Positions 11,030-29,598 of a stretch of 57,334 nt of DNA are shown here, piece after piece. The stretch is from Candidatus Aenigmatarchaeota archaeon. Lineage in GTDB: Archaea; Aenigmatarchaeota; Aenigmatarchaeia; GW2011-AR5. The DNA is taken from positions 1-57,334 of the forward strand of contig JAZDNV010000018.1 in assembly GCA_043799385.1 (NCBI GenBank), read 5' to 3'. How positions within the stretch are numbered: the stretch's first letter is position 1; the number at the start of each line of letters is the position of its first letter. The notes under the pieces were generated by a model. The model was not told the DNA's origin. It did no database searches and worked only from the letters and a program-made list of their open reading frames with translations. The translations under genes were made by a program, and so were the position numbers.

Positions 11030-11040
11030 TCTATCACCAT

Positions 11041-11131: not shown

Positions 11132-11143
11132 TATCACCATGAG

Positions 11144-11355
11144 TGCCGGGGATGGGAGATTCCAGTCTTTTCTTTTCCAGGGTTTTCTTTTTTGAAAAGA
11201 AAAGCCTTTTTGAACCCACGCAGCGACTAACGCACAGGATGTCTTCTTTTTTTCTTTCGTGTTCTTTTGATAAAGCTTTTCTTTCAAGAAAAGCTTTCTT
11301 AAGTCCTGCCCCTTTGACCATTCAAGGTTCAGCAAACTGACTTGGGTACCCCGGC
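11144..11355 (-). tRNA. tRNA-Leu(UAA) with three introns (D-loop, 37/38, 59/60)
   Basis: Removing 11321-11338, 11241-11297 and 11158-11208 gives an 86-nt cloverleaf: GCCGGGG/CCCCGGC acceptor, CAGGA-CTTAAGA-TCCTG anticodon arm, long variable arm, GTGGG-TTCAAAT-CCCAT T arm. Sits at the conserved position between rpoD and rpl18e. Confidence 0.88.
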
Positions 11356-11397
11356 ATTTATAAATCTTATGAAGTCAATCTTAAAAATTTATCAGAA

Positions 11398-12183
11398 TTA
11401 CTTCACTTCTTTCCTGACTTCCTTTATGAACCCTAATGCACGTTTCTCCAGGATATCCAATGCCTTGCTCAATATGCCAACTGCGTTCATCCCTGAAATG
11501 GATTCTATCTTGAATATGAAATTATTTTCTTCGCCAGCGACCGTGACTGCTTTTTTATCGCATACTTCCATACAACGAAGGCACAAATTGCAATTCGCTG
11601 CACCAGCAAGTCCGATTTTTCCATCTTTTTTCTGGAATATGTTCTTCGGGCATACGTCAATGCAATTACCACACTCGTCGCATTTGTCGCTGTAAAACCT
11701 TACTACTGGAACGTTCCTGTAGCCAACGGTTGCTGCCTGATATTTTGCATGGTCTCTGCCAAAACCGAGTTGAGCGAATGCTCTAAACTTTATTTTATGC
11801 CCTTCTAGAAGTTCGACAATCGGAATATCAGGATCAAACGGTGTGACGTCACCATCAAATATCAGATCGCTCGCTTTTACGATGCAGGGGCCCTCTTTCT
11901 CCAACGTTGCAACGACCTCGCATCTGCTGCAGCCCTTGCCTTTGCATTTGCATTCGCTCTTCATCTCAAATATGTCTGGAAACACGAGCGGTATCAGACC
12001 TAGACGATGCGCAATTACCTCGTCGAAAAGCCCTGACGAATTATACTCAAATTCAACGTATTCTATCGCAAGCACAGGCATTTCAGAAATCATTATCCTT
12101 CGCAATGCATTCGCAAAAGCAGGGTCGCAGTCAAGAATAAATTCCATCCTTCTGTCTGATTTTTCCAGTATCTTAAGATTCAT
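11398..12183 (-). CDS. rpoD: DNA-directed RNA polymerase subunit D (Rpo3) with ferredoxin-like Fe-S domain
   Basis: FANALRRIMISE, AHRLGLIPL, HAKYQ and two CxxCxxCxxxC motifs. Confidence 0.96.
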   Translation of the reverse strand: MNLKILEKSDRRMEFILDCDPAFANALRRIMISEMPVLAIEYVEFEYNSSGLFDEVIAHRLGLIPLVFPDIFEMKSECKCKGKGCSRCEVVATLEKEGPCIVKASDLIFDGDVTPFDPDIPIVELLEGHKIKFRAFAQLGFGRDHAKYQAATVGYRNVPVVRFYSDKCDECGNCIDVCPKNIFQKKDGKIGLAGAANCNLCLRCMEVCDKKAVTVAGEENNFIFKIESISGMNAVGILSKALDILEKRALGFIKEVRKEVK

Positions 12184-12192
12184 AAAAATCAC

Positions 12193-12579
12193 TTATACTC
12201 TCCTGCCGCGACGACCTCCCTTCTTCCTGCAAGTATCATGAGAAATGGGCGTCACGTCTTCTATGCTGACTATCCTGAAACCCGAGCGGACCAGCGCACG
12301 AATAGCCGGCTGGGCACCCTGGCCTGGTATCTTTGATTTTATTCCGCCAGGCGCACGAATCCTTATATGAAGTGTTGTTATTCCCTGCGGTATTGCCTTT
12401 TCTGCTGCCTTTCTTGCAACTTTCATTGCCGTGAAAGGTTTGCCTTTGTTCATGTCCTTGTCAGAAACCATCCCGCCTGAGGCGAATGCGACAGTCTCTG
12501 CGCCAGTGAGGTCAGTTATATGCACTATAGTGTTGTTCATCGATGAATATATATTTGCTATTCCTGTTTTATCTTTCAT
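12193..12579 (-). CDS. rps11: 30S ribosomal protein S11
   Basis: [15 protein letters not shown] and [10 protein letters not shown]...GGRRGRRV. Confidence 0.98.
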
Positions 12580-13085
12580 GCACTCACCGTATCAGCGTCT
12601 TTTTCTCCCGCGATTATTTTATTTTTTATTTTCGGACTAAGCTGAATCTTTGCTTCGAGCTCGGTCGGAACCAGGAAGCTTGGCCATGATATCCTTCTAT
12701 CGTCGACAATCACATGGCCGTGAACTATCATCTGTCTTGCATGCTTGGAAGTGCTTGCAAAATTCTTCTTGAATATTATTGTCTGCAGCCTTCTGGATAA
12801 AATATTCTCTATATTTAACCCCAGTATGTCCTCGAGCTTCGAGCAGTTGAACCCGTACTTGTTAACTTTATCAAAAAGCTCTTTTTCCTTCTTATCATTC
12901 TTTTTTGCCAAGAGCTCACGCGCCCTGCGGCGAAAGTCTCTTAGTATACTCTCAGCACGCTGGATTTCATGTTTTCTTCTCAATCCGAATTCTGCGAGCA
13001 ATTTTTTTTCTCTTTCAATCCTGTCTTTATAATAAGGCTTAAACGGCGTTTCATATTTTTTTCTCTGCATCTTTGGGTGGCCCAT
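12576..13085 (-). CDS. rps4: 30S ribosomal protein S4
   Basis: MGHPK...KYETP, RRLQT and ARQMIVHGH. Confidence 0.97.
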
Positions 13086-13100
13086 ATAATCACTTCAGAA

Positions 13101-13604
13101 TTATTTCTTTTCCTCTTTTTTCGGCGCTGTCTTTGCAGCTATGGCTTTCTTCGAGACGCCTACCGTTTTCTGCGTCCTGAAACTGCTGCGTGTTCTCTGG
13201 CCGCGAACCGGCTGCCCGAGCTCGTGCCGAACGCCTTTATAAGCACGGATTCTTTTCAAAAGATTAATGTCATCCCTTTTCTTCATGTCCAGCTTGGAGC
13301 CAGTGAGGTGCATAATTTCTCCTGTCTCAAAATCGCGCCTTCTGTTGAGCAGCCAAGGCTCCAGTTTCTTATCGCCGACAGCAGTGTTTCTTATTGCATT
13401 CTCCAGCGTTTTGAGCTCGTCGCTGCTGAGAAGCCCTATCTCCTTCTTAGGGTCAACACCTGTCAATGAGCATATCGCATTTGCAAACATGAAACCGACT
13501 CCCTTTATCTTCTTGAGAGCCCTCAGCGTACTTAGCTCGCCTGTCAGGTCTGCCTCAAGTAATCGTACAATCCGCTTCCTCTCGCTCTTTTCCGTTTTTT
13601 CCAT
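13101..13604 (-). CDS. rps13: 30S ribosomal protein S13
   Basis: IKGVG, WLLNRRRDFETG and GQPVRGQRTRS. Confidence 0.97.
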   Translation of the reverse strand: MEKTEKSERKRIVRLLEADLTGELSTLRALKKIKGVGFMFANAICSLTGVDPKKEIGLLSSDELKTLENAIRNTAVGDKKLEPWLLNRRRDFETGEIMHLTGSKLDMKKRDDINLLKRIRAYKGVRHELGQPVRGQRTRSSFRTQKTVGVSKKAIAAKTAPKKEEKK

Positions 13605-13839
13605 TCATTCACCTTACTAAAACAATCTCTTCATCCTCAATCCTTAAATACGATAATTCGTATATCTTTGTATCAATCCAAACTTTTAAATCTTTAATAA
13701 AAGCATCTTTGGCACTGTAAACTTAACGAGGATTGGCATCAGCTTTGCGATGATAATCCTCAACAACGAGCTATTGACAATAGTCATAGCCCTTAAGTTT
13801 ACAGTGCATCTTTTTATTCTCCCTGAACAAGTTATTTCT

Positions 13840-14307
13840 ATGTTCGTAAGCCGGATAATGACAAAAAACCCAATATCCGTGGATCCGTGTGACTCGTTGG
13901 AAAAGGTTCTTGATATTCTTACAAAAAACCGTATTTCCGGCTGCCCTGTCGTCGATGGAAAGAGATTACTGGGCGTCATCACGGAGAGCGACATAATAAG
14001 GATAATCGACGTGCACACAAAGATACACAAGCCTGAATCTGGATTGTTCCCGCTCATCCTCGCCGTCATAAAGGATGAGAAATACGACGCATTGAAATCA
14101 GCGCTAAAGGACGTACTGAGCCTGAAGGTAAAAACATTCATGTCAAAGAAGGCGGTAACAATAGACGTGAACGACGATGTCTACAAAGCCGCGAGGCTGC
14201 TGAACAGGCATGATATTGACCGGTTGCCTGTGACTGAAAATAAAAAGCTCGTTGGCATAATCACCCGCTGGGACCTGATTCGCGCTTTGGACAAGCTGGA
14301 GAAATGA
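13840..14307 (+). CDS. CBS domain protein
   Basis: Paired CBS repeats (ISGCPVVD...GVITESD; IDRLPV...GIITRWD). ATG at 13840. Confidence 0.9.
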   Translation: MFVSRIMTKNPISVDPCDSLEKVLDILTKNRISGCPVVDGKRLLGVITESDIIRIIDVHTKIHKPESGLFPLILAVIKDEKYDALKSALKDVLSLKVKTFMSKKAVTIDVNDDVYKAARLLNRHDIDRLPVTENKKLVGIITRWDLIRALDKLEK

Positions 14308-14308
14308 T

Positions 14309-14596
14309 ATGAAATTGAAAGAGTTTCTGAAACAAAGTGGTTTGAAGGTTGTTTTGACTTTAATTTTGTTAATTGCGTCATCTGTTCCAGATATTTCAGT
14401 ACAATGTCCTGGTTGCGTACGAGAAGCGCATGGTTTTCCGCTAGACCTGTATGGGTTGCCTGGTTGTGAACCAACGCCAACGTCCAATTGCCCAGGATAT
14501 ATGATACATTATTCAGGACTTTTGGTTGACGTTATATTCTGGTATCTCATCGCTTGCCTGATAATATTCGCTTACAAAAAAATCAAGAAGAAATGA
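14309..14596 (+). CDS. Hypothetical membrane protein with Cys-containing loop
   Basis: N- and C-terminal hydrophobic helices and GFPL motif; tightly follows the CBS gene. Confidence 0.65.
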   Translation: MKLKEFLKQSGLKVVLTLILLIASSVPDISVQCPGCVREAHGFPLDLYGLPGCEPTPTSNCPGYMIHYSGLLVDVIFWYLIACLIIFAYKKIKKK

Positions 14597-14761
14597 TTAC
14601 TCGTTATTTGCCCACTTGAAACGTCTTGGATCGCGGTGCAGCTTGAATAAATTTTTTTCGCACTTCTTCGAGTCGAAGTAGAATACCTTGCCTGTCTTTT
14701 CTATGACCATCACTCCAGTGCCCTGCTCGATTGGATTTTTACAAAAACTGCATTTCGCCAT
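14597..14761 (-). CDS. rpl24e: 50S ribosomal protein L24e (not in ORF track)
   Basis: MAKCSFCKNPIEQGTGVMVIEKTGKVFYFDSKKCEKNLFKLHRDPRRFKWANNE; follows rps28e. Confidence 0.95.
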   Translation of the reverse strand: MAKCSFCKNPIEQGTGVMVIEKTGKVFYFDSKKCEKNLFKLHRDPRRFKWANNE

Positions 14762-14763
14762 TT

Positions 14764-14973
14764 TTATCGCCTGCCATACGTCTCGCTTGACTCCATCTCT
14801 GTCTCGCGCAGCATTATAACGTCGCCTAATCGCACTGGCCCGATTATGTTTCGAGTCAGGACCTTGCCCTTGTCGCGGCCATCAACGACCCTGCATTTTA
14901 TAGTCGTCACTCCTTTAGCTCCCTTTCTACCCAAAACGTTTATTACTTCAGCAGGAGTTGACTCTTCTGGCAT
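14764..14973 (-). CDS. rps28e: 30S ribosomal protein S28e
   Basis: PAEVINVLGR and RNIIGPVRLGDVIMLRETE. Confidence 0.96.
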   Translation of the reverse strand: MPEESTPAEVINVLGRKGAKGVTTIKCRVVDGRDKGKVLTRNIIGPVRLGDVIMLRETEMESSETYGRR

Positions 14974-14992
14974 TTTATCACTTAGTGCAGAA

Positions 14993-15310
14993 CTATTTCT
15001 TCACGAGCTCTTCCAATTTCTTCTTCCCTTCGCCCGCGTCGACTATTGCAACGGACGCTGTTACGACGTTGATACCGGACGCACGGCCAAGCTCTGATTT
15101 GCTCGACACAGTCACGAAAGGTATCTTCTTCTCGTCGCATAATGGCGGCAGGTGCATTGTTATCTCCGGAGGATCTACGTCTTCCGCTGCGACAACAAGC
15201 TTTGCTATCCCGCGCTCTATTGCCTTTGTAGTCTCGTTTATTCCCTTCCTTATCTTTCCTGTCTCTCTTGCTATTTCTATCAGTTCAAAAATGTCCTCAG
15301 CTTTCTTCAT
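14993..15310 (-). CDS. rpl7ae: 50S ribosomal protein L7Ae
   Basis: GKIRKGINETTKAIERG and AEDVDPPEI..HLPPLCDEK. Confidence 0.97.
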   Translation of the reverse strand: MKKAEDIFELIEIARETGKIRKGINETTKAIERGIAKLVVAAEDVDPPEITMHLPPLCDEKKIPFVTVSSKSELGRASGINVVTASVAIVDAGEGKKKLEELVKK

Positions 15311-15407
15311 AGGTATCAAGATAACCATTATTGTAAACCTATTTAAATTTTAATATGAGAAAGATATCCTTGATTAAGCTATAAACTAGTTGAAATAAGT
15401 GATTGTT

Positions 15408-15575
15408 ATGGGAAAATTTTTGAAAGTAAAATGTTTGAAATGCAAGAACGAGCAGATAGTATTCAACAAAGCGGCAACGGTCGTGAAATGCCTCGTCTGC
15501 GACAGCGTTCTAGCCGAGCCGACTGGCGGCTCTGTGAAGATAAAAGCGAAAGTACTCGAAAATCTTAGCGATTAA
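15408..15575 (+). CDS. rps27e: 30S ribosomal protein S27e (not in ORF track)
   Basis: [41 protein letters not shown]; upstream of aIF2-alpha. Confidence 0.95.
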
Positions 15576-15576
15576 G

Positions 15577-15665
15577 AACTTTGCATAAAAAGTGATGTGC
15601 ATCTGTATGATGCACATCGGCGGTAGGCTATCAGCGTGTGGACGTGCCTGTTTTTGTGCAAAGCT
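15577..15665. mobile_element. MITE-like element, family A, copy 2 (inverted relative to copy 1)
   Basis: Aligns end to end with the reverse complement of 11041-11131. TIR AACTTTGCATAAAA / TTTTGTGCAAAGCT; flanks GCGATTAAG / GCAATTAAG (8/9). Confidence 0.78.
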
Positions 15666-15684
15666 GCAATTAAGGTAGTAAATA

Positions 15685-16422
15685 ATGGTCAGAAAGCGTG
15701 GTTTGCCAAGCAACGGTGAATTGGTCGTATGCAGGATAGAGCGGTTAAATCCTAATTCTGCTTTTGCAGTTTTATTGGAATACAACAGGGAAGGCATGAT
15801 TCATATCTCCGAGGTCAGCAGCGGCTGGGTCAGAGATATCCGAAACCATGTAAGAGCCGGCCAGGAGCTTATCGCAAAGGTGATAGGCGTTGATGAGAAC
15901 CATCTGAATCTGTCGATAAAGCGCGTCGATAAAAAAGAAGAGAAGAGAAGGATGAAGGAATACAACCTGGACCAGAAAGCAGAGCGCATGCTCGAGATAG
16001 TTACAAAAGAGCTGGGCAAGGATTTGAACAAGGCGTATGATGAGGTCGGTTATCTTCTTCAGGAAAATTTCGGCTCATTGTTCGAGGGATTCAAAAAAGC
16101 AATTCAAAATCCGACCGCGCTAAGGGAGCGCGGCATTGCGGAGTTATGGATAAAACCGATTAAAGAGATAGCGGAGAAATCCATAGAGCAGAAGGAGTTC
16201 GAATTCTCTGCAAGGATTACTGTCAAGACTAGCAAGCCGGACGGCATAAGCATCGTAAAAAACATATTATCTGCCGCAGAGAAGAGCGGCCTTGAGGTGA
16301 AATACATATCCGCTCCGGAATACATGGTAAAATACAAATCAAAAGATGCGAAGAAGGGCGGAAATGAATTTCAGAAAATGCTGGACAGATTATCCGCCAA
16401 CGCTGAAGTAAAGGTCATATGA
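15685..16422 (+). CDS. eif2a: Translation initiation factor 2 alpha subunit
   Basis: S1 domain LPSNGELVV...EGMIHISEVSSGWVRDIR and YISAPEY. Confidence 0.95.
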   Translation: MVRKRGLPSNGELVVCRIERLNPNSAFAVLLEYNREGMIHISEVSSGWVRDIRNHVRAGQELIAKVIGVDENHLNLSIKRVDKKEEKRRMKEYNLDQKAERMLEIVTKELGKDLNKAYDEVGYLLQENFGSLFEGFKKAIQNPTALRERGIAELWIKPIKEIAEKSIEQKEFEFSARITVKTSKPDGISIVKNILSAAEKSGLEVKYISAPEYMVKYKSKDAKKGGNEFQKMLDRLSANAEVKVI

Positions 16423-16571
16423 TGATTCTAAGATGCCCGAAGTGCGGTAGATACACGTTAGCAGAAATATGCAAGTGCGGAACGACTGCAAGAGACGCTC
16501 ATCCGATGAAATTCTCGTCTGCGGACAGATACGGTAAGTATAGAAGAATCGCAAAACTTAAAAGCGAGTGA
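16419..16571 (+). CDS. nop10: H/ACA RNP protein Nop10 (not in ORF track)
   Basis: MILRCPKCGRYTLAEICKCG...AHPMKFSSADRYGKYRR; conserved position after aIF2-alpha. Confidence 0.93.
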   Translation: MMILRCPKCGRYTLAEICKCGTTARDAHPMKFSSADRYGKYRRIAKLKSE

Positions 16572-16597
16572 AGGCATAAGAAAGATATACGATTGCT

Positions 16598-17359
16598 ATG
16601 AAGACAGAAATAAATGTCCTTGAAAAGGTTAAGCTGAAAACCCCTATACTAATCGAAGGCTTGCCTGGCATCGGAAACGTCGGCCGTGTTGCAGCTGGCT
16701 ACCTAATCTCAAAACTAAAGATGAAAAAATTCGCAGAGCTTTATTCGCCTTATTTTTTGCCGCTGGTCATTCTGCACGAGGACAACGTCGCTCATCTTTT
16801 GAAATGCGAGTTTTATTATTACAAAGGCAAGAGGGATATCATAGTTCTTTCTGGCGACACGCAGAGCATAAGCCCTGAAGGGCATTATGAAATCTGCGAG
16901 AGCATCCTTGAATTCGCGAACAAGCTTGGAGTAAAAGAAATCATCACGCTTGGCGGATTCGCATCGCAGGAGACGGACGACCCTAAGGTGATAGGCGCTG
17001 TCAATGACAGGGAGCTTTTGAAAAAATACTCGAAATTCGGCGTCTATTTCGGCAAGGAACATCTGGTCGGCACGATAGTCGGAGCGTCCGGATTGCTGAT
17101 AGGCATTGGAAAGAAATACAGGATGGATGGATTGTGCCTGATGGGAGAAACGGTAGGACTACCTATTATAACAGACCCGAAGGCAGCTGACAAAATCCTG
17201 CAGGCCTTGATCAAGATATTGGGCATAAAACTAGACTTGGTCGATTTGGAGAAAACTATTAAAACTATGGACGAGAAGATAAAGAAGACCGAAGCGGCAT
17301 ACAAGAAAGTTTTGGATGAAACGCCGAAACCAAAGGATGATGTCCGCTATATAGGTTGA
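16598..17359 (+). CDS. Proteasome assembly chaperone (PAC2) family protein
   Basis: IEGLPGIGNVG, IITLGG, IVGASGLL, CLMGET and C-terminal YIG. Confidence 0.9.
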   Translation: MKTEINVLEKVKLKTPILIEGLPGIGNVGRVAAGYLISKLKMKKFAELYSPYFLPLVILHEDNVAHLLKCEFYYYKGKRDIIVLSGDTQSISPEGHYEICESILEFANKLGVKEIITLGGFASQETDDPKVIGAVNDRELLKKYSKFGVYFGKEHLVGTIVGASGLLIGIGKKYRMDGLCLMGETVGLPIITDPKAADKILQALIKILGIKLDLVDLEKTIKTMDEKIKKTEAAYKKVLDETPKPKDDVRYIG

Positions 17360-17373
17360 TTTTTGGCGATGAT

Positions 17374-17568
17374 ATGTTCGCATACGAAGGACTTACGAGA
17401 TTCGAAAAAACAAGGATAATGTCTGCACGTTCGCTGCAGATATCAATGGGCGCACCAATATTGATAAAAACTGATTTGGACGACCCGAAGGCGATAGCAA
17501 AATTAGAGTTCAGCCAAGGCATCTTGCCGATTACGATCAGAAGACGAATGCCAAAGAGGATGGAGTAA
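17374..17568 (+). CDS. rpoK: DNA-directed RNA polymerase subunit K (Rpo6)
   Basis: LTRFEKTRIMSARSLQISMGAP...LPITIRR. Confidence 0.96.
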   Translation: MFAYEGLTRFEKTRIMSARSLQISMGAPILIKTDLDDPKAIAKLEFSQGILPITIRRRMPKRME

Positions 17569-17620
17569 TTTATTCTTTTATACAATATAACCTTTTTTAT
17601 AGCGCCGTGCAATTAATAGC

Positions 17621-18820
17621 ATGATTGAACGCATATATGCCCGCGAAGTTCTCGATTCACGCGGCTTTCCGACTGTGGAGTGCGAAATTCTTGCCGGTCC
17701 TTACTTCGCCCGCGCGTCCGTGCCGTCAGGCGCCAGTACGGGCAGACGTGAAGCGCTCGAGCTTCGCGATGGCGAGAAGCGATTTCTGGGCAAAGGCGTG
17801 AAAAAAGCGTGCAGTAATATCAATAACATAATTGCAAAAAAGATTACCGGAATGCGAATCAACCAGGAGAATATTGACAATAAGCTAATAGAAATGGCAG
17901 GCGAAAACAAGCAAAAGCTCGGAGCGAACGCAACGCTGGCCGTGAGCATGGCTGTATGCAAACTTGCTACGTTGGATTCGGGATTGCGAATCTATGAGCA
18001 TCTTTCAAACTCTTTGAAGAGAAAGTCGAAAATGCCAATCCCTTTGTTTAATATAATAAACGGCGGGCGCCACGGCTTCGGAATTGATTTCCAGGAATAC
18101 CACATAATACCGACAAAGAAAACGTTTGCAGAGAACTTGCAATCGTCCTGCGACGTATACCATACGCTGAAAGCGATTCTAATAAAAAGGTTTGGCTCTG
18201 CCAGCGTCGGCGACGAGGCAGGATTCACGCCGCCATTGACGAACGTGAAAGAGCCATTGGAACTGATAATGAACGCTGTTGAAGAATGCGGTTATGCGAA
18301 AGAGTTCAATCTTGGATTAGACGTCGCTGCATCCACGTTCTATAAAAATGGTTATACCGTGGAAGGCAAGAAGATGGGTGGCAGCGAATTAATCGATCTC
18401 TACACGAATCTGACAAAAACCTATCCGCTGCTTTATCTAGAGGACCCGTTCCATGAAGAAGACTGGATTGCATGGACGGAACTAACAAAAAAGATTGGTG
18501 ACAGGGTAAAAATCGTCGGAGATGACCTTCTTTGCACCAATCCGCAATTGATTCGCGACGCAATAAAGAAGAAGGCATGCAATTCATTGCTATTGAAGAT
18601 AAACCAGATTGGCACGATTAGCGAAGCCTTGAACGCGGCAAAGATTGCCATTGACGCTAAATTCTCTGTCATCGTATCGAACCGCTCCGGCGAAAGCGAA
18701 GACTCGTTCATAGCTGATTTAGCCGTCGCCGTTGGCGACTACTGCAAGTTCGGCGCGCCAGCACACGAGAGAACGATAAAGTACAACCAGTTGCTAAGAA
18801 TAGAGGAAAAACTGAAATAA
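17621..18820 (+). CDS. eno: Enolase
   Basis: EVLDSRGFPTVE, VPSGASTG, VGDEAGF, EDPF, VGDDL and LLLKINQIG. Confidence 0.96.
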   Translation: MIERIYAREVLDSRGFPTVECEILAGPYFARASVPSGASTGRREALELRDGEKRFLGKGVKKACSNINNIIAKKITGMRINQENIDNKLIEMAGENKQKLGANATLAVSMAVCKLATLDSGLRIYEHLSNSLKRKSKMPIPLFNIINGGRHGFGIDFQEYHIIPTKKTFAENLQSSCDVYHTLKAILIKRFGSASVGDEAGFTPPLTNVKEPLELIMNAVEECGYAKEFNLGLDVAASTFYKNGYTVEGKKMGGSELIDLYTNLTKTYPLLYLEDPFHEEDWIAWTELTKKIGDRVKIVGDDLLCTNPQLIRDAIKKKACNSLLLKINQIGTISEALNAAKIAIDAKFSVIVSNRSGESEDSFIADLAVAVGDYCKFGAPAHERTIKYNQLLRIEEKLK

Positions 18821-18863
18821 ACTATTTTTAAAGTTTTACATAGATTAATAAAGAGCGAAAAGT

Positions 18864-19448
18864 ATGACGAAAACAAAGGAGAAACTGAACGTACCTAGGG
18901 AGAAATACCTTACAGCAGGCGTGCACATAGGCATGACTACGAAGACGGTGAACATGAAACGGTTCATATACAAAATTAGACCAACAGGATTAGCGGTGCT
19001 GAACGTCGGGACATTGGACAAGAGATTGGTTTATGCAGTTAATCTTCTGGCTGACATGAAAAAGATACTCGTTGTCTCGAAAAAGGAGAACGGCTTCGAC
19101 GCTGTAAAGAAATTCGCCGAGTCGATAGATGCAAAAGCGGTTACTGGACGTTTTATGCCAGGCTCATTAACCAATCCTTCATACAAGGAATTCTTCGAGC
19201 CTGAACTCATGATTGTTACTGACCCGCTGGCCGATAAGCAGGCAATAAAGGAAGCGATAAGCATGAGAATACCAATAATCGGTCTCGCAGACACGTTCAA
19301 CGACACGTCATATCTCGATCTTGTATTACCGTGCAACAACAAGGGCAAAAAATCGTTAGCGCTCGTCTATTGGATTCTTGCAAAGCTGATAAACGAAAAG
19401 CGCGGAAAAGAGTTCAAGCTCGTTGTTGAAGATTTCGGGTATGAATAA
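18864..19448 (+). CDS. rps2: 30S ribosomal protein S2
   Basis: YLTAGVHIG, GRFMPGSLTNP and PCNNKG. Confidence 0.97.
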   Translation: MTKTKEKLNVPREKYLTAGVHIGMTTKTVNMKRFIYKIRPTGLAVLNVGTLDKRLVYAVNLLADMKKILVVSKKENGFDAVKKFAESIDAKAVTGRFMPGSLTNPSYKEFFEPELMIVTDPLADKQAIKEAISMRIPIIGLADTFNDTSYLDLVLPCNNKGKKSLALVYWILAKLINEKRGKEFKLVVEDFGYE

Positions 19449-19472
19449 ATATTTTTCTGCCCAATTCTTATC

Positions 19473-20270: not shown

Positions 20271-20277
20271 TTTTTGA

Positions 20278-20382
20278 TTATCCGCAAACTCCGTAGCCAC
20301 AATTTCGACAGAACGCGCAGCCTTCTGCAAAGACGAGCTTCGATCCGCATTCAGGACAGTTTTCATCTTGTATCATGTTCAT
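20278..20382 (-). CDS. Stand-alone zinc-ribbon peptide resembling the NrdJ C-terminal domain (not in ORF track)
   Basis: MNMIQDENCPECGSKLVFAEGCAFCRNCGYGVCG; GGAGG SD; directly downstream of cobO. Confidence 0.75.
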   Translation of the reverse strand: MNMIQDENCPECGSKLVFAEGCAFCRNCGYGVCG

Positions 20383-20399
20383 CAACCTCCTAATTTTAA

Positions 20400-20960: not shown

Positions 20961-20996
20961 AAAATCATTTTATAATAATTTACAGCGAAGTTATAA

Positions 20997-23060: not shown

Positions 23061-23085
23061 TCTAACCCCACATCCACAGACAGAA

Positions 23086-23099
23086 TAATACTAGTATTA
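23086..23099. promoter_or_regulatory. Perfect palindrome upstream of nrdJ, candidate regulator site
   Basis: TAATACTAGTATTA lies between a TATA-like run and the nrdJ start. Confidence 0.35.
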
Positions 23100-23232
23100 C
23101 CCCTATTAAAAAAGGTTTGTGTCCTTGAAAACTGAAATGACTCATCAGTAGTTTCATTTAAAAATATGGTGGTTGTTACTTGGTTAGCACATAAAATGTA
23201 AGATTTATAAAAATTTTCATCATGTCATAAGT

Positions 23233-23967
23233 ATGTGGTACATAGATCTCAGTGTCAGTAGGATTGGAACTGCTGACGATAGATACTCCAACAATGGCGA
23301 AGATTTTGGAAATCAAGTTCCTCTTCAATGGAATATAGCTGTCCATCCAAACCAATCTGGAAGAATAGCAATAAACTATCCGGGCGTTGGTGGAAGTATC
23401 GATGGTTATGCCGACAAATACCTGAAGCTTGCTAATCTAATTCAGGAAAAAAATATTGCAGCAGTCGTCAGGACAGGCAACCATCCGTGGGCAGGCTTTC
23501 AATATGAAAAATCTTTAGTCGATGATTTGCGAACTGTTATTGATTATTCATTGGAAGCTAGTAAAGATATATGCGGTTCCAAAGAACCTGAGTTATATTT
23601 GATGGGCTTTTCTGCCGGAGCAAGCGCAGTTGCCGCGATAGCGCATGAATTCGAGAAAGTCAGCAGAATATTGCTCTTGGCTCCGTCCGGCGATGCAGGC
23701 GATTCAATCGTAAATCTAGGAAAATACAAAGGAGATGTATATATAACAGTTGGTGAGAACGATGAGATAGTCGGACAGGAAGCTGGTCTTTTCTTCTATG
23801 ATATGGCAACAGGCGCAAAATCAAGAAAACTTGTGATAGTTCCGAACTGCGACCATCAGTTCCGTGGAGAAATTAACGGAATGATAATGAGCAAAGCTCC
23901 ATTATGGGCTTTTGCTGGAGATAAGACATTCCCGAACCCGGAATGCGGGATTAAATTGTACGATTAA
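23233..23967 (+). CDS. Alpha/beta hydrolase
   Basis: GFSAG nucleophile elbow, GENDEIV (Asp) and CDHQF (His). Confidence 0.85.
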   Translation: MWYIDLSVSRIGTADDRYSNNGEDFGNQVPLQWNIAVHPNQSGRIAINYPGVGGSIDGYADKYLKLANLIQEKNIAAVVRTGNHPWAGFQYEKSLVDDLRTVIDYSLEASKDICGSKEPELYLMGFSAGASAVAAIAHEFEKVSRILLLAPSGDAGDSIVNLGKYKGDVYITVGENDEIVGQEAGLFFYDMATGAKSRKLVIVPNCDHQFRGEINGMIMSKAPLWAFAGDKTFPNPECGIKLYD

Positions 23968-24024
23968 AAAATTATTCTATTTTTATTAGAAATTGAAAAT
24001 TGTATTTGAAAAAGAAAATCAAGC

Positions 24025-25041
24025 TCAGCAGTTGCCGCTTGCTGTTCCCGCGTCGCCTGACAATACTGTTGAGCATTCAGTTGGCTCAGTTACGAATCCG
24101 CTGCAGATGGCTTTCTTGAATGATTCTGCATCCCTGCCACCGCTGTATTTCACGCCGTTTATAATCAATGTTGGCGAGCCACTTACTCCGTACTGGTTGG
24201 TCAATGCCTCGTCGGCCTTCAATAAATCAAGGCCTTCTTTGCTGAAGGCGCATGCCTCGATTTTTGTTGCGTTTATGCCCAGCTTCTTTGTGGCGTTCTT
24301 CCATGCAGCATCAAACGCAGTAGCATCGCGATAAACAGGATAACCGTTCTTGTTTATGTCCGCTACGTATTCCCAGTACTTGTCCGGGTAATACTTCATT
24401 ATGCACAGCTGGCGCAAATCTTCCTTTGCTTCAGGCGCTCCGTGCAACGACTGGACGGAATCAACCGTATCGCCGCCGACATTTGCTATGAACCTGACTT
24501 TAATATCAGCCTTGCCTTTCAAAAGATCCGCAACCGGCTTCATTGCCTCTTCCGCTTGCACGCCGTAAGGGCAGAAGGCCATCACATATAGGTTGACTTC
24601 TGCCTTTTCCTTCTTCTCTATTTCCTGAGTTTCTGGCTCGGTTGTTTCAACCGGTTTTGTCGTGTCCATTGGCTGTGATAAGAATAAATTCGTGCCGTCC
24701 TTTGTTATGAAAACAGGGATTTGCTGGCCCTGGTAAGTTGTCGTAATCTTGTACATTCCGTTCGTTTCTTCAACGCTTACAAGAGATACAGAACCTGTCG
24801 ATACGACGTTGGCGTTTATGTAGTCTATCGCCTTCTTTGCGGCGTCCTGCGCATTTATCGTGACCATGCCTGTTCCTGCGCTAGGCTTGCCTACAGTGAA
24901 TGTGAAAACTATGAAACTAGCGAGAACGACAATCATTGCAATCGTGGAAATCTTCCAGACGTTCTTTTCGCGCTTCTCTGCCTTCTTCTCTTCCTTTACC
25001 TCATTTTCAACGTCATTATCAGCGTGTTTCTCCTTTGCCAT
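24025..25041 (-). CDS. Membrane-anchored thioredoxin/DsbA-like protein
   Basis: N-terminal TM helix, YVMAFCPYG and GVSGSPTLIING. Confidence 0.82.
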   Translation of the reverse strand: MAKEKHADNDVENEVKEEKKAEKREKNVWKISTIAMIVVLASFIVFTFTVGKPSAGTGMVTINAQDAAKKAIDYINANVVSTGSVSLVSVEETNGMYKITTTYQGQQIPVFITKDGTNLFLSQPMDTTKPVETTEPETQEIEKKEKAEVNLYVMAFCPYGVQAEEAMKPVADLLKGKADIKVRFIANVGGDTVDSVQSLHGAPEAKEDLRQLCIMKYYPDKYWEYVADINKNGYPVYRDATAFDAAWKNATKKLGINATKIEACAFSKEGLDLLKADEALTNQYGVSGSPTLIINGVKYSGGRDAESFKKAICSGFVTEPTECSTVLSGDAGTASGNC

Positions 25042-25157
25042 TTTTACCCCTTAACGGTAGTATTAATCAGATAACCTTAAAAACCTTTCGTTGTGCCTTC
25101 CTCTTCCATAAGTTTAGTCCCAAAAGTATAAAAGCGTATTTTTTCAAAATAGATACC

Positions 25158-25391
25158 ATGACCGTTAAAGTATACACGACATCTGTCTGTCCTTACTGCA
25201 ACTTTGCAAAGGATTTCCTCAGGGAGAATAATGTAAAGTTCGAGGAGATTAACGTGCAACTGGACAGGAGCGCGGCAGAAGAAATGATAAAGAAAACCGG
25301 CCAGATGGCCGTGCCTGTAATCGAAATAGACGGGAAGATAATAGTCGGTTTCAACAAAGAGGCAATTAAAAAGGCGCTGAAGCTGAAATAA
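25158..25391 (+). CDS. Glutaredoxin-like / NrdH-redoxin
   Basis: VYTTSVCPYC and TGQMAVPVIEIDG..IVGF. ATG at 25158. Confidence 0.92.
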   Translation: MTVKVYTTSVCPYCNFAKDFLRENNVKFEEINVQLDRSAAEEMIKKTGQMAVPVIEIDGKIIVGFNKEAIKKALKLK

Positions 25392-25415
25392 AAATAGATA
25401 ATTCTCAAAATCTGG

Positions 25416-26222
25416 CTACTTCTTTTTCCCGCCGCCTAAAATATTATTAATATCGTCCAGTACGCCTTTAATCTTGTTATCTATATCCTCACGCTCCTTT
25501 GTCATCTGTTTTTCACGCTCATCTCTAATCCTCTCTGATTCCTTTTGCCCTCTTGTTTTTTCCGGTATCTTTTGCTCGGGCGTAACCCAACTGCCATAAT
25601 CAGGTTTTGTGGAGGAAGGCTGCGAACCTGAAGACGGAGAAGAATCGCTTGACGTAGACCTGATGAGACCTGACGCGCTTTTCTCCATCATCCATGCGCC
25701 AAGGAGATTTCCCAAAGCGCCAAAGTAATTGCCTGTCGCCGCGCTAGTCGCGGCGTTAGAAAGATATTCCCTTGTCATCGGGCTGTACACGTCCCTTATT
25801 ACCTGGAACACGATGCCGTCCCTGTCTATTCCGCTGTTTGACAGTATATCAGAACGATATTCGAACGCCTGGCCAGTAGAATACCCCATCTCAACCTCAT
25901 ATTCATGAATTTTTGCAAAATCCCTGCCTATGCCCTTTATCGCTGCTGCTGAATAGACGACTAGTACGACGCCTGCGATTGCGCCTGCGATTGCCAGTTT
26001 TCCTGGCCGTTTCTTTTTCTTTTCCTGTAGAAATATGTACTTAGGCTCTTCAGGATTAACCGATTGCTCATTCAAAGAAGCGTGTCTGTACCCATCTGGA
26101 AGATTACCGTCACCTGTGCTCGGTGTGCCTTCATTTAATATCTTGTTGAGTTCATGGAGTTTTCTTAGAAAATCATCCGAGGTAGAATTATCTTTACCGT
26201 TTGTTCCTTTCGGATACTGCAT
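25416..26222 (-). CDS. Hypothetical membrane-anchored protein with Ser-rich linker and coiled-coil tail
   Basis: 268-aa ORF with a TM helix after a basic patch. Confidence 0.65.
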   Translation of the reverse strand: MQYPKGTNGKDNSTSDDFLRKLHELNKILNEGTPSTGDGNLPDGYRHASLNEQSVNPEEPKYIFLQEKKKKRPGKLAIAGAIAGVVLVVYSAAAIKGIGRDFAKIHEYEVEMGYSTGQAFEYRSDILSNSGIDRDGIVFQVIRDVYSPMTREYLSNAATSAATGNYFGALGNLLGAWMMEKSASGLIRSTSSDSSPSSGSQPSSTKPDYGSWVTPEQKIPEKTRGQKESERIRDEREKQMTKEREDIDNKIKGVLDDINNILGGGKKK

Positions 26223-26252
26223 AATAGAACTTGCCTGAAAAGATATAAAAAA

Positions 26253-27242
26253 TTACTTCTTCCTCTCGACCAGATAATCGATGAATAAATCCAGCGTATC
26301 CCTCAGCTTGGGCGGCATTTTCGCTGTAATCGCTTTTGCCTTCTTTATAAGCCAATCTGCCTTGCGTTTGGCATAATTAACTGAGCCATATTTCTCAAAT
26401 AAAATTTTTGCATAGGTTATGTCATCGATTGACGTCTCTTTCACCTGTTTGTTCAGTATGCTCAATAATTTCTTTTCTTCTTCTTTGCTGCATTTGCTTA
26501 GGCAATGAATCACGAGTATGCTCCTTTTCCCTTCCTTGACGTCGCGACCAATCTCGCCGCGGCCTTTTCCTTCTGTTAGATCGAGCAGATCGTCTATTAT
26601 CTGGAACGCAGGGCCGATGTATTTTCCAAGCTCATCTATGCGATTAATCGTTTTTTCGTCCGCACCGGCAATCACTGCTCCGCCAATCATCGGAAGAGCG
26701 ATATAGTATGCGGTTTTGTGCAGGACCGCGTCCATGTAATCGCGTTCTTTAGGGCGGTCGTTATTCCTGAGGTTTATGTCCATCGCCTGGCCTTCGGCTG
26801 TCTTAATTGCCGTGTCGACCATCATCGCCATTAACCGCAGGGTTTTCTTCTCGTCCACGCCACGCTTTCTTGATCGCAATATTAACTCAAATGTTTTCTG
26901 CGACATGTAATCGCCGACATTTATCGCGTGTGCAATGCCGTATTTTTTCCAGACCGTTGGCTTATTCCTTCTAACCGCGTCGCCGTCTTCTATATCGTCA
27001 TGGATAAGAAGCCAGTTGTGCAGGATTTCGCAAGCAGCCATGAACGGCAATGCTTTCTTTGAGTCACCGTTCAATGCTTCGCAGACCATTATGCCCATAA
27101 CAGGGCGAATCCTTTTACCGCCTGTAGACAGGTGATACCACGCGGCGTCGTTCAGGTTATTCAGGCCTTTTTTTGGAAAAACAGCAGCTATCTCGCGGTC
27201 AATCATTTTTGATTTGGCTTCCAATATTTTCTCAACATTCAT
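26253..27242 (-). CDS. idsA: Polyprenyl synthetase (GGPP synthase-like)
   Basis: GGKRIRP, first Asp-rich motif LIHDDIED..RR, EGQAMD, KTA and FQIIDDLLD. Confidence 0.92.
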   Translation of the reverse strand: MNVEKILEAKSKMIDREIAAVFPKKGLNNLNDAAWYHLSTGGKRIRPVMGIMVCEALNGDSKKALPFMAACEILHNWLLIHDDIEDGDAVRRNKPTVWKKYGIAHAINVGDYMSQKTFELILRSRKRGVDEKKTLRLMAMMVDTAIKTAEGQAMDINLRNNDRPKERDYMDAVLHKTAYYIALPMIGGAVIAGADEKTINRIDELGKYIGPAFQIIDDLLDLTEGKGRGEIGRDVKEGKRSILVIHCLSKCSKEEEKKLLSILNKQVKETSIDDITYAKILFEKYGSVNYAKRKADWLIKKAKAITAKMPPKLRDTLDLFIDYLVERKK

Positions 27243-27290
27243 TTTATCATTTTATTAAAACAATCTTAAATATCTAGAACATATCAAATT

Positions 27291-27388
27291 GGTTGTCAAC
27301 TAATCGGGCATTGACATATGAAAGTGTCAATACCCAACAGGAAGGGATATCATCGTTATAGATGCTATCCATTAATCAATTGACAACC
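27291..27388. mobile_element. MITE-like element, family B
   Basis: 14-bp imperfect TIR (12/14; GGTTGTCAACTAAT / ATCAATTGACAACC), 10-bp flanking direct repeat ATATCAAATT / ATATCAAACT, and two internal hairpins. Confidence 0.68.
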
Positions 27389-27427
27389 ATATCAAACTTT
27401 TTATTCAGAAAGTCACATAAATTAGAC

Positions 27428-28087
27428 ATGGTTGAAGGTGTAAAAAGAATCTCAACGGGAATACGTGGCCTTGACAAGCTGACAAAAGGCTTTGTTCAGG
27501 GCGATGTCTATTTCATAACAGGCGGGACTGGGAGCGGAAAAACGATATTCTGCTGCCAGTTTATTCACGAAGGGCTCAAAAACAATGAAAAATGCATATT
27601 CTTCTCGCTGGAAGAGCGGCCGGATAGCATAATGAACGATGCCGACAGCTTCGAATGGGATTTCAGGAAATCTGAAAAGAGCGGGCGCCTGCTCATCGAA
27701 TACCGCGACCCGTTCGAAACAATAAATATCGCCTCGGCGGTGAAAAATAGGATAGAGAATTTCAATGCAACGCGAGTCGTTATAGATTCCACTTCGCTGT
27801 TCGGAATCGTGTTCAAGGACGAGAACGAAATGAGACGTCAGTTGTACGAATTGATAAAATTGCTGAAAGAGACGAACTGCGTAACGCTTCTCACGGGCGA
27901 GATTCCGTCCGGTTCGGATAAGTTATCGCGATTCGGCGTCGAGGAATTCGTTGCGGACGGAGTCATAGTCTTGCATCATTCGATAAAAGGGAGAAGCCTG
28001 TTCATAAAAAAGATGAGAAAGACAAAGCATGATGACAAAATGCATGCAATGAGGATAACCAGCAGTGGCATAGAAGTCGCCGACTAG
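27428..28087 (+). CDS. KaiC-like single-domain RecA-superfamily ATPase
   Basis: ISTGIRGLD, Walker A GGTGSGKT, SLEE, VVIDS, EEFVADGVI and KMR.T.H. Confidence 0.9.
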   Translation: MVEGVKRISTGIRGLDKLTKGFVQGDVYFITGGTGSGKTIFCCQFIHEGLKNNEKCIFFSLEERPDSIMNDADSFEWDFRKSEKSGRLLIEYRDPFETINIASAVKNRIENFNATRVVIDSTSLFGIVFKDENEMRRQLYELIKLLKETNCVTLLTGEIPSGSDKLSRFGVEEFVADGVIVLHHSIKGRSLFIKKMRKTKHDDKMHAMRITSSGIEVAD

Positions 28088-28120
28088 AAAGCATTTATCT
28101 CTTTTTTGAGTAATGTTATT

Positions 28121-29125
28121 ATGGGAATACAGCTAACAGATCTTGTAAAAGGAAATGAGATAACGATAGAGGATTTGCGCAACCGGAGAATCGCAATTGA
28201 TTCGTTCAACTGGATTTACCAATTTCTTTCAATAATAAGGCAGAGGGACGGCGAGCCGCTTAAGGATTCGAAAGGCCGCGTAACGTCTCATATATCCGGA
28301 TTGTTTTACAGGACGACAAAGCTTCTCGAAGCAAATGTAAAGCCTGTATTCGTTTTTGATGGCAAGCCGCCTGAATTCAAGGTCGTCGTGGAAAAAAGGC
28401 GCGACATACGATTAGAAGCAATGCGCGAGTGGAAAAGCGCGCTTGAGCGAAAGGACTATGAAGCAGCGAGAAAGTTTGCAATGCGCTCATCTACTGTAAC
28501 AGAAGAGATTATCAATGGCAGCAAAGAATTGCTTAGTGCTTTTGGCGTTCCTGTCATCCAGGCTCCGTCCGAAGGCGAAGCGTTGTGCTCAGTCATGACA
28601 AGGAACGGCGACGTATATGCAACCGCAACGCAGGACTATGACTCACTGCTCTTCGGATGCAATAAGCTTGTGAGGAATTTGTCCATAACCGGGAAGAGAA
28701 AGCGCGGAACTTCGTATGTGACGGTAAATCCCGAATTGCTTACGCTGGATGACTTACTAAAAAATCTTGAGATAAACCAGGATCAGCTGATAATGCTCGG
28801 CATACTTATCGGAACTGATTACAACCCTGGCGGCGTTTCAGGTTACGGGCCAAAGCGTGCGCTGGAACTAGTGAAAGCGAAGAAAACGCTGAATGAAGTA
28901 ATGAAGGAGCTCGTCTGGGATTTTGATGTATCGGCAGAGGATATATTCAACTTCTTCAAGCATCCTACCGTATCTGATTATAAAATAGAATTCACTGAAA
29001 TTGATGAAAACAAGATAAAAAAGATTCTCTGCGATGAGTATGATTTTTCAGAAGAGCGCGTAGACAATGTTCTGAAAAAGATGAAACGCGAAGAAAGCCA
29101 GGAAGGTCTTGGAAAATTCTTCTAG
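28121..29125 (+). CDS. fen: Flap endonuclease 1
   Basis: IYQFLSIIRQRDG, VFDGKPP, APSEGEA, QDYDSLLFG, GTDYN and C-terminal PIP box QEGLGKFF. Confidence 0.97.
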   Translation: MGIQLTDLVKGNEITIEDLRNRRIAIDSFNWIYQFLSIIRQRDGEPLKDSKGRVTSHISGLFYRTTKLLEANVKPVFVFDGKPPEFKVVVEKRRDIRLEAMREWKSALERKDYEAARKFAMRSSTVTEEIINGSKELLSAFGVPVIQAPSEGEALCSVMTRNGDVYATATQDYDSLLFGCNKLVRNLSITGKRKRGTSYVTVNPELLTLDDLLKNLEINQDQLIMLGILIGTDYNPGGVSGYGPKRALELVKAKKTLNEVMKELVWDFDVSAEDIFNFFKHPTVSDYKIEFTEIDENKIKKILCDEYDFSEERVDNVLKKMKREESQEGLGKFF

Positions 29126-29448
29126 GATTCAGTGCAACCGCACGTTTTGTAGCATTTGTCTTCATCGTAACTCATCAAATCACAAAGCCTGGCAAGAGAA
29201 TAATCCTTTGGGCTCGTGTCACCGATATCCTGGTGTTTAACCGTAACTGAACTCATCTTTGCCTTGTCGCAGCCATAGAGGCTCCTCAATTCCTGGCATG
29301 CCTGGTTGATTGCGCTCTGCCTTTTCATCTTAACCTCAGTGTCAGAAAACATGCCCGAGAAAAGTGCAGCAACTACAAGCAATACAAGGAACGCTATCAA
29401 AATTATCACTATCGTGTTTATCGGAAGTGACAATCCCTTTTTTCCCAT
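29122..29448 (-). CDS. Small pilin-like protein with class III signal peptide and Cys-rich C-terminus
   Basis: MGKKG|LSLPINTIVIILIAFLVLLVV followed by six Cys. Confidence 0.7.
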   Translation of the reverse strand: MGKKGLSLPINTIVIILIAFLVLLVVAALFSGMFSDTEVKMKRQSAINQACQELRSLYGCDKAKMSSVTVKHQDIGDTSPKDYSLARLCDLMSYDEDKCYKTCGCTES

Positions 29449-29487
29449 AATAATCATTTTTCTTTCCAAATATATAAAGATTATCAA

Positions 29488-29598
29488 TGCGACCGCTGGG
29501 ATTTGAACCCAGGTCATCAGCTTTCTTTTTCTTGATGGAACTTCTTTTTTAAAGAAGGTCCTTGGAAGGCTGAGGTCCTACCACTAGACTACGATCGC
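29488..29598 (-). tRNA. tRNA-Gly(UCC) with a 40-nt intron at 37/38
   Basis: Removing 29523-29562 gives a 71-nt cloverleaf: GCGATCG/CGGTCGC acceptor, TCAGC-CTTCCAA-GCTGA anticodon arm, CTGGG-TTCAAAT-CCCAG T arm. Confidence 0.92.

What the first reader, a model, noticed from the sequence alone, without database searches (positions are those of the whole stretch)
11158..29562. tRNA introns share one palindromic module, suggesting mobile or selfish introns
Three introns begin with the same hairpin type, a pyrimidine arm followed by a purine arm and an A-rich tail. Leu 37/38 reads AAAGCTTTTCTTGAAAGAAAAGCTTT-ATCAAAAG. Gly 37/38 reads AGGACCTTCTTTAAAAAAGAAGTTCC-ATCAAGAA. Leu 59/60 reads AAGGCTTTTCTTTTCAAAAAAGAAAACCCT-GGAAAAG. 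All three also form the same relaxed 3-bp central helix. This suggests one repeat family that spreads among tRNAs and positions, disguised as endonuclease substrates.
Basis: partly seen in the sequence, partly recalled or inferred. Interest (0 to 1): 0.72.

Follow-up and report, generated by a model that had tools for sequence, protein, structure and literature searches.

The report
Triplex-type repeat seeds archaeal tRNA introns
Three tRNA introns of this tiny archaeon begin with copies of one short hairpin repeat whose tail mirrors its stem, a repeat that also sits outside introns in related archaea; it likely folds into a three-stranded DNA structure and likely spreads as DNA, which would offer a route for how new tRNA introns arrive.

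Summary
Observation confirmed. The three strings start real tRNA introns. 22 of 48 introns in the genome carry the module or a remnant, at D-loop, 37/38 and 59/60 sites, far above hairpin-preserving shuffles (24.2 vs 12.2±0.3). The 3-bp helix is not module-specific.

In 70 genomes, stem/tail run lengths matched 180+65 times and mismatched 4+4 times. This is the sequence signature of a class II intrastrand triplex, the BoxC/TM architecture.

The module is patchy at orthologous tRNA sites. It also lies behind stop codons and stable-RNA ends, in SRP-RNA introns and antisense inside introns, and occurs in other archaeal phyla and viral contigs. So the spreading unit is a dispersed repeat, not the whole intron.

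Best reading (0.55): a DNA-level triplex repeat that survives in tRNAs where EndA can splice it out. No mobilising enzyme was found; triplex and splicing are untested. I found no description in nine literature searches. This scan found the element before, on this genome and others. New variant of a known kind; interest 0.6.

The parts
11144..11355 (-). tRNA-Leu(TAA) gene with three introns; spliced length 86 nt
   Evidence: hand annotation, mature cloverleaf printed; missed by ARAGORN and Rfam
11321..11338 (-). 18-nt D-loop intron (about 17/17a), full 4-bp BHB, no module
11241..11297 (-). 57-nt intron at 37/38, 3-bp central helix, no distal inner helix
11272..11297 (-). module hairpin of the 37/38 intron (pyrimidine arm, short loop, purine arm), intron nt 1-26
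11262..11271 (-). ATC linker and purine tail mirroring the purine arm (four-A type)
11158..11208 (-). 51-nt intron at 59/60, 3-bp central helix; the pyrimidine arm can pair with the near or the far purine run
11179..11207 (-). module hairpin of the 59/60 intron, intron nt 2-30
11168..11177 (-). mirror tail of the 59/60 module (GG-linker subtype, found in several archaeal phyla)
29488..29598 (-). tRNA-Gly(TCC) gene
29523..29562 (-). 40-nt intron at 37/38 made of the module alone
29537..29561 (-). module hairpin of the Gly intron, intron nt 2-26
29528..29536 (-). ATC linker and mirror tail (two-A type); the purine run continues into the strand that pairs with the anticodon loop

Best explanation
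The three introns begin with copies of a dispersed repeat of about 35 nt (pyrimidine arm, loop, purine arm, linker, mirror-image purine tail) that likely folds into an intramolecular DNA triple helix, likely spreads as DNA, and likely persists in tRNA genes only where the splicing endonuclease can cut it out. SHOWN: it is one family; the tail co-varies with the stem as a mirror; the hairpin starts at intron nt 1-4; copies occur outside introns and in both orientations; orthologous sites are filled or empty even within a genus. INFERRED: (1) The strand drawn here would form a purine-motif (class II) triplex and its complement a pyrimidine-motif (class IV) triplex. (2) New copies arise at the DNA level in transcribed regions, through an unidentified trans-acting nuclease or through repair at the structure. 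Copies at the same tRNA position, such as the five 59/60 introns, spread further by gene conversion between tRNA paralogues. (3) An insertion at 37/38 is at once a splicable relaxed (hBH) intron: the hairpin stacks where the inner helix belongs and the purine tail supplies the strand pairing with the pyrimidine-rich anticodon loop. At D- and T-loop sites a distal complement is needed to close a full BHB. (4) The single EndA with a Nanoarchaeum-type basic loop, plus RtcB, removes them.
For: Mirror covariation. In the genome's own intron census the T-run and tail A-run lengths match in 16 of 18 parsed introns (permutation mean 6.0, p=4e-5; the 2 misses look like parsing errors by eye). In 55 tail-blind hairpins 47 match vs null mean 23.8, max 34; mirror beats direct repeat in 38 of 44 asymmetric arms, the reverse in 3. 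Exact patterns over 70 genomes of the order: T4 stem with A4 tail 180, with A2 tail 4; T2 stem with A2 tail 65, with A4 tail 4. My re-implementation of the ITxF class II rules passes all 3 window introns and 15 of 48 introns; 14 of 17 genome-wide hits with stem of 8 or more lie in tRNA introns, which are 0.27% of the genome (3 of the 14 are opposite-strand readings of one hairpin). Holder et al. state that purine-motif triplexes cannot form in RNA. Context of 63 sampled copies in relatives, classed by hand: 26 sense at an intron start, 5 antisense near an intron 3' end, 11 just behind a stop codon, 8 just behind a stable-RNA end, 13 other. Four non-intron copies lie beside stable-RNA genes in the own genome. 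Recent gain: a D-loop module intron in Leu-TAA of G046 is absent in its close sister G045 and in G016. Copy number runs from 0 to 18 within genus g17. A distal inner helix (4 or more of 6 pairs) is present in 10 of 11 non-canonical module introns vs 1 of 11 at 37/38, Fisher p=0.0003. EndA and RtcB are present.
Against: No mobiliser was found. Y1 transposase is absent from the own genome (91% complete) and present in 19 of 44 family genomes; the 6 loci inspected have their own IS ends and no module at those ends. No reverse transcriptase. DUF559 occurs in 5 of 70 genomes, only in long open frames, none framed by modules. The strong sense bias and the exact start at intron nt 1-2 (17 of 21) fit an RNA-level process or an RNA function as well. 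In the own genome most copies are in introns (22 vs 4). Kin and subfamilies are not independent, so the p-values overstate. The loci were found with tail-bearing queries. The FEN1 tree is poorly resolved (4 of 18 branches starred), so gain versus loss is decided for only one sister pair. No triplex or splicing has been measured.
Confidence: 0.55

Rival explanations
1. Whole introns move through RNA. An excised module-bearing intron is ligated into another cut pre-RNA by RtcB or reverse-spliced, and is then copied back into DNA.
For: The hairpin starts at intron nt 1-2 in 17 of 21. Three module-only introns are exactly 40 nt (Gly-TCC, iMet, Arg-TCT). In G013 the module sits in front of the older Leu-TAA intron like a stacked mini-intron. 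Sense orientation dominates.
Against: Copies behind stop codons and stable-RNA ends have no evident splice motif, and 5 intron copies are antisense. Only 5 of 48 whole introns reach 80% across tRNA types, all at one position. No reverse transcriptase was found in the own genome. The mirror tail is unexplained.
Confidence: 0.2
2. The module is a host-serving element kept by selection: an RNA 3'-end stabiliser, a terminator or processing signal, or a protein-binding site. It is duplicated occasionally and the streamlined genome trims DNA up to it.
For: Sense bias and abutment to stop codons and RNA ends. Stems and tail are conserved while the loop bases vary freely. One subtype is letter-identical over 29 specified bases in several archaeal phyla.
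Against: Presence is patchy, and close relatives, including the best-assembled ones (G041, G016), have 0-1 copies of the two exact patterns while congeners have up to 18. Different subtypes replace each other at one site. Tandem mosaic arrays occur (G031). The sense-strand triplex class is reported not to form in RNA.
Confidence: 0.2
3. Convergent low-complexity A/T hairpins that arise independently wherever an inner helix is needed.
For: The three window introns alone are only weakly above hairpin shuffles, and the sequence is of low complexity.
Against: Family-wide score 24.2 vs maximum 13.1; the 180/4/4/65 covariation table with reversed-pattern controls of 0, 0, 3 and 0; identical long copies across phyla.
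Confidence: 0.05

Closest known systems
BoxC / PIT / TM-ECO intrastrand triplex repeats of bacteria (Holder et al. 2015, PMC4666352; read: abstract, introduction part 1, sections 10 and 16, passages)
   Same: Same order of parts (pyrimidine stem, loop, purine stem, loop, mirror purine strand = class II); about 35 nt; linker subtypes; inverted pairs; copy number differs sharply among close relatives; no mobility gene known.
   Different: A/T-rich rather than G/C-rich, with no TM-ECO consensus; archaeal; inside tRNA, SRP and rRNA genes rather than always intergenic; strongly sense-biased, whereas TM-ECO has no strand bias.
Transposed tRNA-intron families of Thermoproteales (Fujishima et al. 2010; paper not held; seen only through passages of PMC4090602 and PMC3239211 and sections of preprint 10.64898/2026.10.13.758758)
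   Same: [quoted passage not shown]
   Different: Here the shared part is a 5' module, not the whole intron; it has free-standing copies outside introns, a mirror tail, and antisense copies.
Multi-intron tRNA genes of Asgard archaea (preprint 10.64898/2026.10.13.758758; read: abstract, introduction, section 2.5, discussion)
   Same: Most tRNA genes interrupted (36 of 41 here), many non-canonical introns, repeated gains, missed by standard finders.
   Different: There only 1.5% of introns fall in cross-tRNA families and no route of arrival was found. Here 18 of 48 share a 5' module at 80% (my own identity measure, so not directly comparable) and a donor repeat exists outside introns.
REP/BIME repeats with RAYT (REP and BIME as described in PMC4666352; RAYT and the 5' tetranucleotide recalled)
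   Same: Short palindromes behind stop codons and stable-RNA genes; mosaic arrays in alternating orientation (G031).
   Different: No conserved 5' tetranucleotide seen; no Y1 gene framed by the repeats; obligatory mirror tail.

Membership tests
EndA-spliced (BHB/hBH) archaeal tRNA intron | Removal restores a canonical tRNA | tested here: met
   all three
EndA-spliced (BHB/hBH) archaeal tRNA intron | Strict 3-4-3 motif with a 4-bp central helix | tested here: not met
   3 bp plus a mismatch in all three; relaxed forms are known; 21 of 48 introns in the genome have fewer than 4 pairs
EndA-spliced (BHB/hBH) archaeal tRNA intron | Host encodes EndA and RtcB | tested here: met
   (RtcB partial, at a contig end)
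EndA-spliced (BHB/hBH) archaeal tRNA intron | Excision shown in RNA | not testable with these tools
   needs RNA reads or an in vitro assay
Class II intrastrand triplex motif (ITxF definition) | Y stem, loop 1-6, R stem, loop 1-6, antiparallel third stem, at most one mismatch for stems of 7 or more | tested here: met
   own re-implementation: stems of 8, 10 and 7 with one mismatch each; 15 of 48 introns
Class II intrastrand triplex motif (ITxF definition) | Physical triplex formation | not testable with these tools
   needs CD, NMR or footprinting
BoxC / TM-ECO | G/C-rich consensus sequence | tested here: not met
   consensus vs the A/T-rich arms
BoxC / TM-ECO | Always intergenic, no strand bias | tested here: not met
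Thermoproteales-type transposed introns | Near-identical whole introns across tRNA types and positions | tested here: inconclusive
   whole introns at 80%: 5 of 48, all 59/60; first 36 nt: 18 of 48 across positions; 0 in 10 dinucleotide shuffles
REP/RAYT system | Y1 (HUH) transposase gene flanked by the repeats | tested here: not met
   none in the own genome; 6 of 38 family matches inspected, none with modules at the element ends
REP/RAYT system | Short palindromes behind genes, singly or in mosaics | tested here: met
Known Rfam family | Match at gathering score | tested here: not met
   only tRNA matches in the window and in 5 module loci

The most novel reading that the evidence does not exclude
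A triplex-forming DNA repeat, mobilised in trans by a still unidentified nuclease, is an intron factory. One insertion of the 35-40-nt hairpin-plus-mirror-tail unit makes a ready EndA substrate, so the repeat creates new introns in tRNA, SRP and rRNA genes across DPANN archaea in a single step. This would be the first identified donor for archaeal BHB introns and would tie bacterial BoxC-type repeats to intron birth.
Probability: 0.3. Interest if true: 0.85.

Novelty: new variant of a known kind. Interest (0 to 1): 0.6.

Why it matters
How intron DNA enters archaeal tRNA genes is called 'the central open problem' in a 2026 preprint that tested copying, mobile elements and reverse transcription and found no general route. 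Here a defined short donor exists both inside and outside introns, with filled and empty sites in sister genomes and a structure-level signature that gives sharp bench tests. It would also give BoxC-type triplex repeats, which have no assigned function, a visible evolutionary consequence. In practice, such genes are missed by ARAGORN and Rfam (the Leu-TAA gene here).

Tried and rejected
RNA evidence: no RNA holder was listed for window 11000-11500, so no reads were laid; this says nothing on expression.

Mobiliser candidates. Y1 transposase: none in the own genome. Family genomes with a match average 6.8 modules vs 3.3 without (19 vs 25, Mann-Whitney p=0.016), but this is confounded by genus g17, and module-rich near-complete genomes (G003, G012) lack it; kept as a weak hint only. 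The modules near the Y1 match in L103 follow stop codons of neighbouring genes, not the element ends. Reverse transcriptase: none. DUF559, a lead from earlier notes: not supported here. Genes between the G031 arrays were not identified by a family scan; by their N-terminal translations they look like ordinary genes.

The 3-bp helix as a family mark was rejected. The tail as a direct repeat was rejected. A covariance model was not built because the MAFFT alignment was out of register; exact patterns were used instead. The FEN1 tree (21 of 44 genomes) was too weak for counting gains. Three of 21 Leu-TAA stretches (G019, G011, G004) gave no anchor match and were left out.

Literature: searches found no description of this element (listings seen; two searches returned nothing; one search listed 20 of 50, none relevant by title). 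A Nanobdellota genome preprint has no hairpin, palindrome or triplex mention (passages). Fujishima 2010 is not held. Supplements were not read; the ITxF database includes archaeal genomes to 2014 and the Asgard supplement lists intron families, and either may bear on novelty.
Full report
Setting. The window is contig C4 of a 786-kb, 31-contig, 91% complete genome. The label Aenigmatarchaeota (DPANN) comes from earlier scan notes, not from a test of mine. It fits the small size and the Nanoarchaeum-like EndA.

Observation. The three strings are exact and each starts an intron: Leu(TAA) 37/38 at 11241-11297, Leu(TAA) 59/60 at 11158-11208, Gly(TCC) 37/38 at 29523-29562, all on the minus strand. 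The Leu gene has a third, non-module D-loop intron (11321-11338). All three show a 3-bp central helix, but so do 10 of 26 non-module introns (11 of 22 module introns; p=0.56). Pairwise, the three are only modestly above hairpin-preserving shuffles (p=0.075, 0.018, 0.008).

Genome census. ARAGORN, Rfam and two gapped template scans gave 41 tRNA genes, 36 of them with 48 introns (boundaries by hand; Lys-CTT and Arg-CCT fit poorly). By eye 22 introns carry the module or a remnant: 11 at 37/38, 6 at 59/60 and 5 in the D-loop. By an unsupervised measure, 18 of 48 introns share their first 36 nt at 80% with an intron of another tRNA type, against 0 in 10 dinucleotide shuffles. For whole introns it is 5 of 48, all at 59/60. 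Seventeen module introns score 24.2 against a hairpin-preserving null of 12.2 (max 13.1 of 500), and 23.7 for cross-position pairs. The hairpin starts at intron nt 1-2 in 17 of 21 folded and at nt 3-4 in the other 4. Four non-intron copies exist, all beside stable-RNA genes: behind 5S rRNA, before tRNA-Asp, and antisense before two tRNA-Leu genes.

The mirror tail. The tail is the purine arm read backwards: when the stem has two, three or four T-A pairs before its C-G pair, the tail has two, three or four A before its G. I noted this before reading earlier findings. In the census the match is 16 of 18 (p=4e-5). Among tail-blind hairpins in fetched loci it is 47 of 55 against a null maximum of 34, and mirror beats direct repeat 38 to 3 among 44 asymmetric arms (these loci were found with tail-bearing queries, and 19 of 74 hairpins were set aside as lacking a purine-rich tail or an internal C). 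An unbiased exact-pattern test on all 70 genomes of the order gave 180 and 65 matched against 4 and 4 mismatched, with reversed-pattern controls of 0, 0, 3 and 0. Kin are not independent, but the covariation recurs within several linker subtypes. Watson-Crick pairing cannot explain a mirror; a third strand can. All three window introns pass my re-implementation of the ITxF class II rules, as do 15 of 48 introns. Holder et al. state that purine-motif triplexes cannot form in RNA while pyrimidine-motif ones can. So the sense strand points to DNA. The complementary strand would form the pyrimidine-motif class IV, and sequence alone cannot say which strand matters (inference).

Relatives. At Gly-TCC 37/38, 19 genomes show 9 module introns of at least two subtypes, 2 unrelated introns and 8 empty sites. 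At Leu-TAA (17 genomes) every gene has a 37/38 intron. Ten carry an older sequence with an antisense to the anticodon loop; in G013 the module sits in front of that sequence; in G000 and three g17 genomes the module stands alone. The 59/60 site is filled in 5 of 17, four of them with modules of three subtypes. G046 has a D-loop module intron that its close sister G045 (0.05 changes per site in FEN1) and G016 lack, which by parsimony is a recent gain. Counts of the two exact patterns run from 0 to 18 within genus g17. Of 63 sampled copies (58 loci, mostly the first match per genome, classed by hand), 26 start an intron in sense (one in SRP RNA), 5 lie antisense near an intron's 3' end, 11 follow a stop codon, 8 follow a tRNA, 5S or SRP end, and 13 are other intergenic or unclear. 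In most of these the hairpin foot faces the nearest functional boundary, with exceptions such as the copy before tRNA-Asp. G031 has mosaic arrays in alternating orientation, and G003 has copies in what look like rRNA regions. The exact Leu-59/60 subtype was found in 24 stretches among 185,579 species, all titled archaeal (Aenigmatarchaeota, Micrarchaeota, Woesearchaeota, Iainarchaeota, Thermoplasmata, Methanosarcinales, unclassified), in introns of different tRNAs and behind genes. The looser four-A pattern also hit 57 stretches of IMG/VR. Many have an outer stem and some lie in 54-62% G+C DNA, none evidently in a tRNA. The repeat type is therefore probably not confined to DPANN; hosts were not determined and some hits may be chance.

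Fit to splicing. One EndA gene was found. It is closest to the M. jannaschii homotetramer but has the basic loop of N. equitans EndA, which was proposed to give broad specificity. RtcB is present. Module introns at non-canonical sites nearly always close a distal inner helix (10 of 11); those at 37/38 rarely do (1 of 11). Folding agrees: the Leu T-loop intron prefers the distal pairing, while the 37/38 introns keep the local hairpin. Three 37/38 introns are 40 nt and consist of the module alone, with the purine tail running into the strand that pairs with the anticodon loop. That the bare module is a ready substrate is inferred, not shown.

Mechanism and rivals. I commit to a DNA-level triplex-type repeat that survives in tRNA genes where it can be spliced (0.55). 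Rivals are RNA-mediated whole-intron transposition (0.2), a host-serving element (0.2) and convergence (0.05). The main weakness is that no mobiliser was found, and the sense bias and exact 5' placement are equally expected of an RNA process.

Comparison and novelty. It works like a BoxC/TM repeat in architecture and like Thermoproteales intron families in outcome. It is a member of neither: it meets the generic class II sequence rule but not the TM-ECO consensus or its intergenic, unbiased placement, and whole introns are not shared across positions. Nine searches of the held library found no description; most subscription papers are not held, and supplements were not read. This scan has noted the element repeatedly on this and other genomes. 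Those notes are not independent support, but one gave me the Holder paper. Verdict: real, new variant of a known kind, interest 0.6.

Noticed in passing
window 11321-11338 (-): Third intron of tRNA-Leu(TAA), in the D-loop, with a full BHB and no module; G006 has a similar intron at the same site.
   Followed up: yes
window 11040-11135 and 15575-15670: A second, unrelated compound palindromic repeat family; the first copy lies right behind tRNA-Leu and has BLAST hits on 15 contigs.
   Followed up: partly
window 30673-30706: Small hairpin behind secY that is 97% identical over 34 nt to a piece nested in the tRNA-Trp intron (C21:39530-39563), so introns take up further repeat types; similar hairpins follow modules in G014 and G055.
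   Followed up: partly
L001:1474-2133 (-) = G000 C11:18447-19103: The only EndA has Ala where M. jannaschii EndA has the lysine I take (by alignment and recalled numbering) to be the catalytic one, plus a basic Nanoarchaeum-type loop. The same Ala occurs in 18 of 18 parsed orthologues (25 loci examined).
   Followed up: partly
L034, L036, L041, L042, L048, L054, L056, L062, L063, L064 (Leu-TAA 37/38 introns): Ten relatives keep in this intron a 6-nt antisense to the anticodon loop followed by box C/D-like motifs (judged by eye); the window's gene lacks it and has the module instead.
   Followed up: no
L073:60-160, L077:437-490, L179:1140-1190: SRP RNA genes of G014, G013 and G003 carry a module-headed insertion at the same site, with a BHB-like boundary in the first two; the own genome's SRP gene (L108) has none.
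   Followed up: partly
L080:427-480 and L076:380-460: Module copies that appear to lie in frame at the 3' end of protein genes (G015, G014).
   Followed up: no
G000 C13:3879-3976 and C11:34090-34199: Unusual anticodons for archaea: tRNA-Pro(AGG), with no Pro(GGG) found, and tRNA-Ile(TAT).
   Followed up: no
G000 C10:36626-36802 and C11:50353-50557: Two near-identical tRNA-Leu(CAA) genes with different variable-arm introns. Not found in the census: Leu-CAG, elongator Met, Ala-TGC, Ala-CGC, Glu-CTC, Arg-CCG (genome 91% complete).
   Followed up: no
G000 C10:34925-35000, C14:20112-20196, C25:33092-33129: Ser-TGA and Lys-TTT modules carry a second hairpin repeat nested in their loop; the Gln-CTG 37/38 intron is a truncated 5' half of the same unit.
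   Followed up: partly
L205-L261: 57 IMG/VR stretches match the four-A module pattern, several in high-G+C, bacterial-looking DNA; hosts not determined.
   Followed up: partly
G000 C10:35893-35902: A 10-nt intron at 37/38 of tRNA-Gly(GCC) with a full 4-bp central helix.
   Followed up: no
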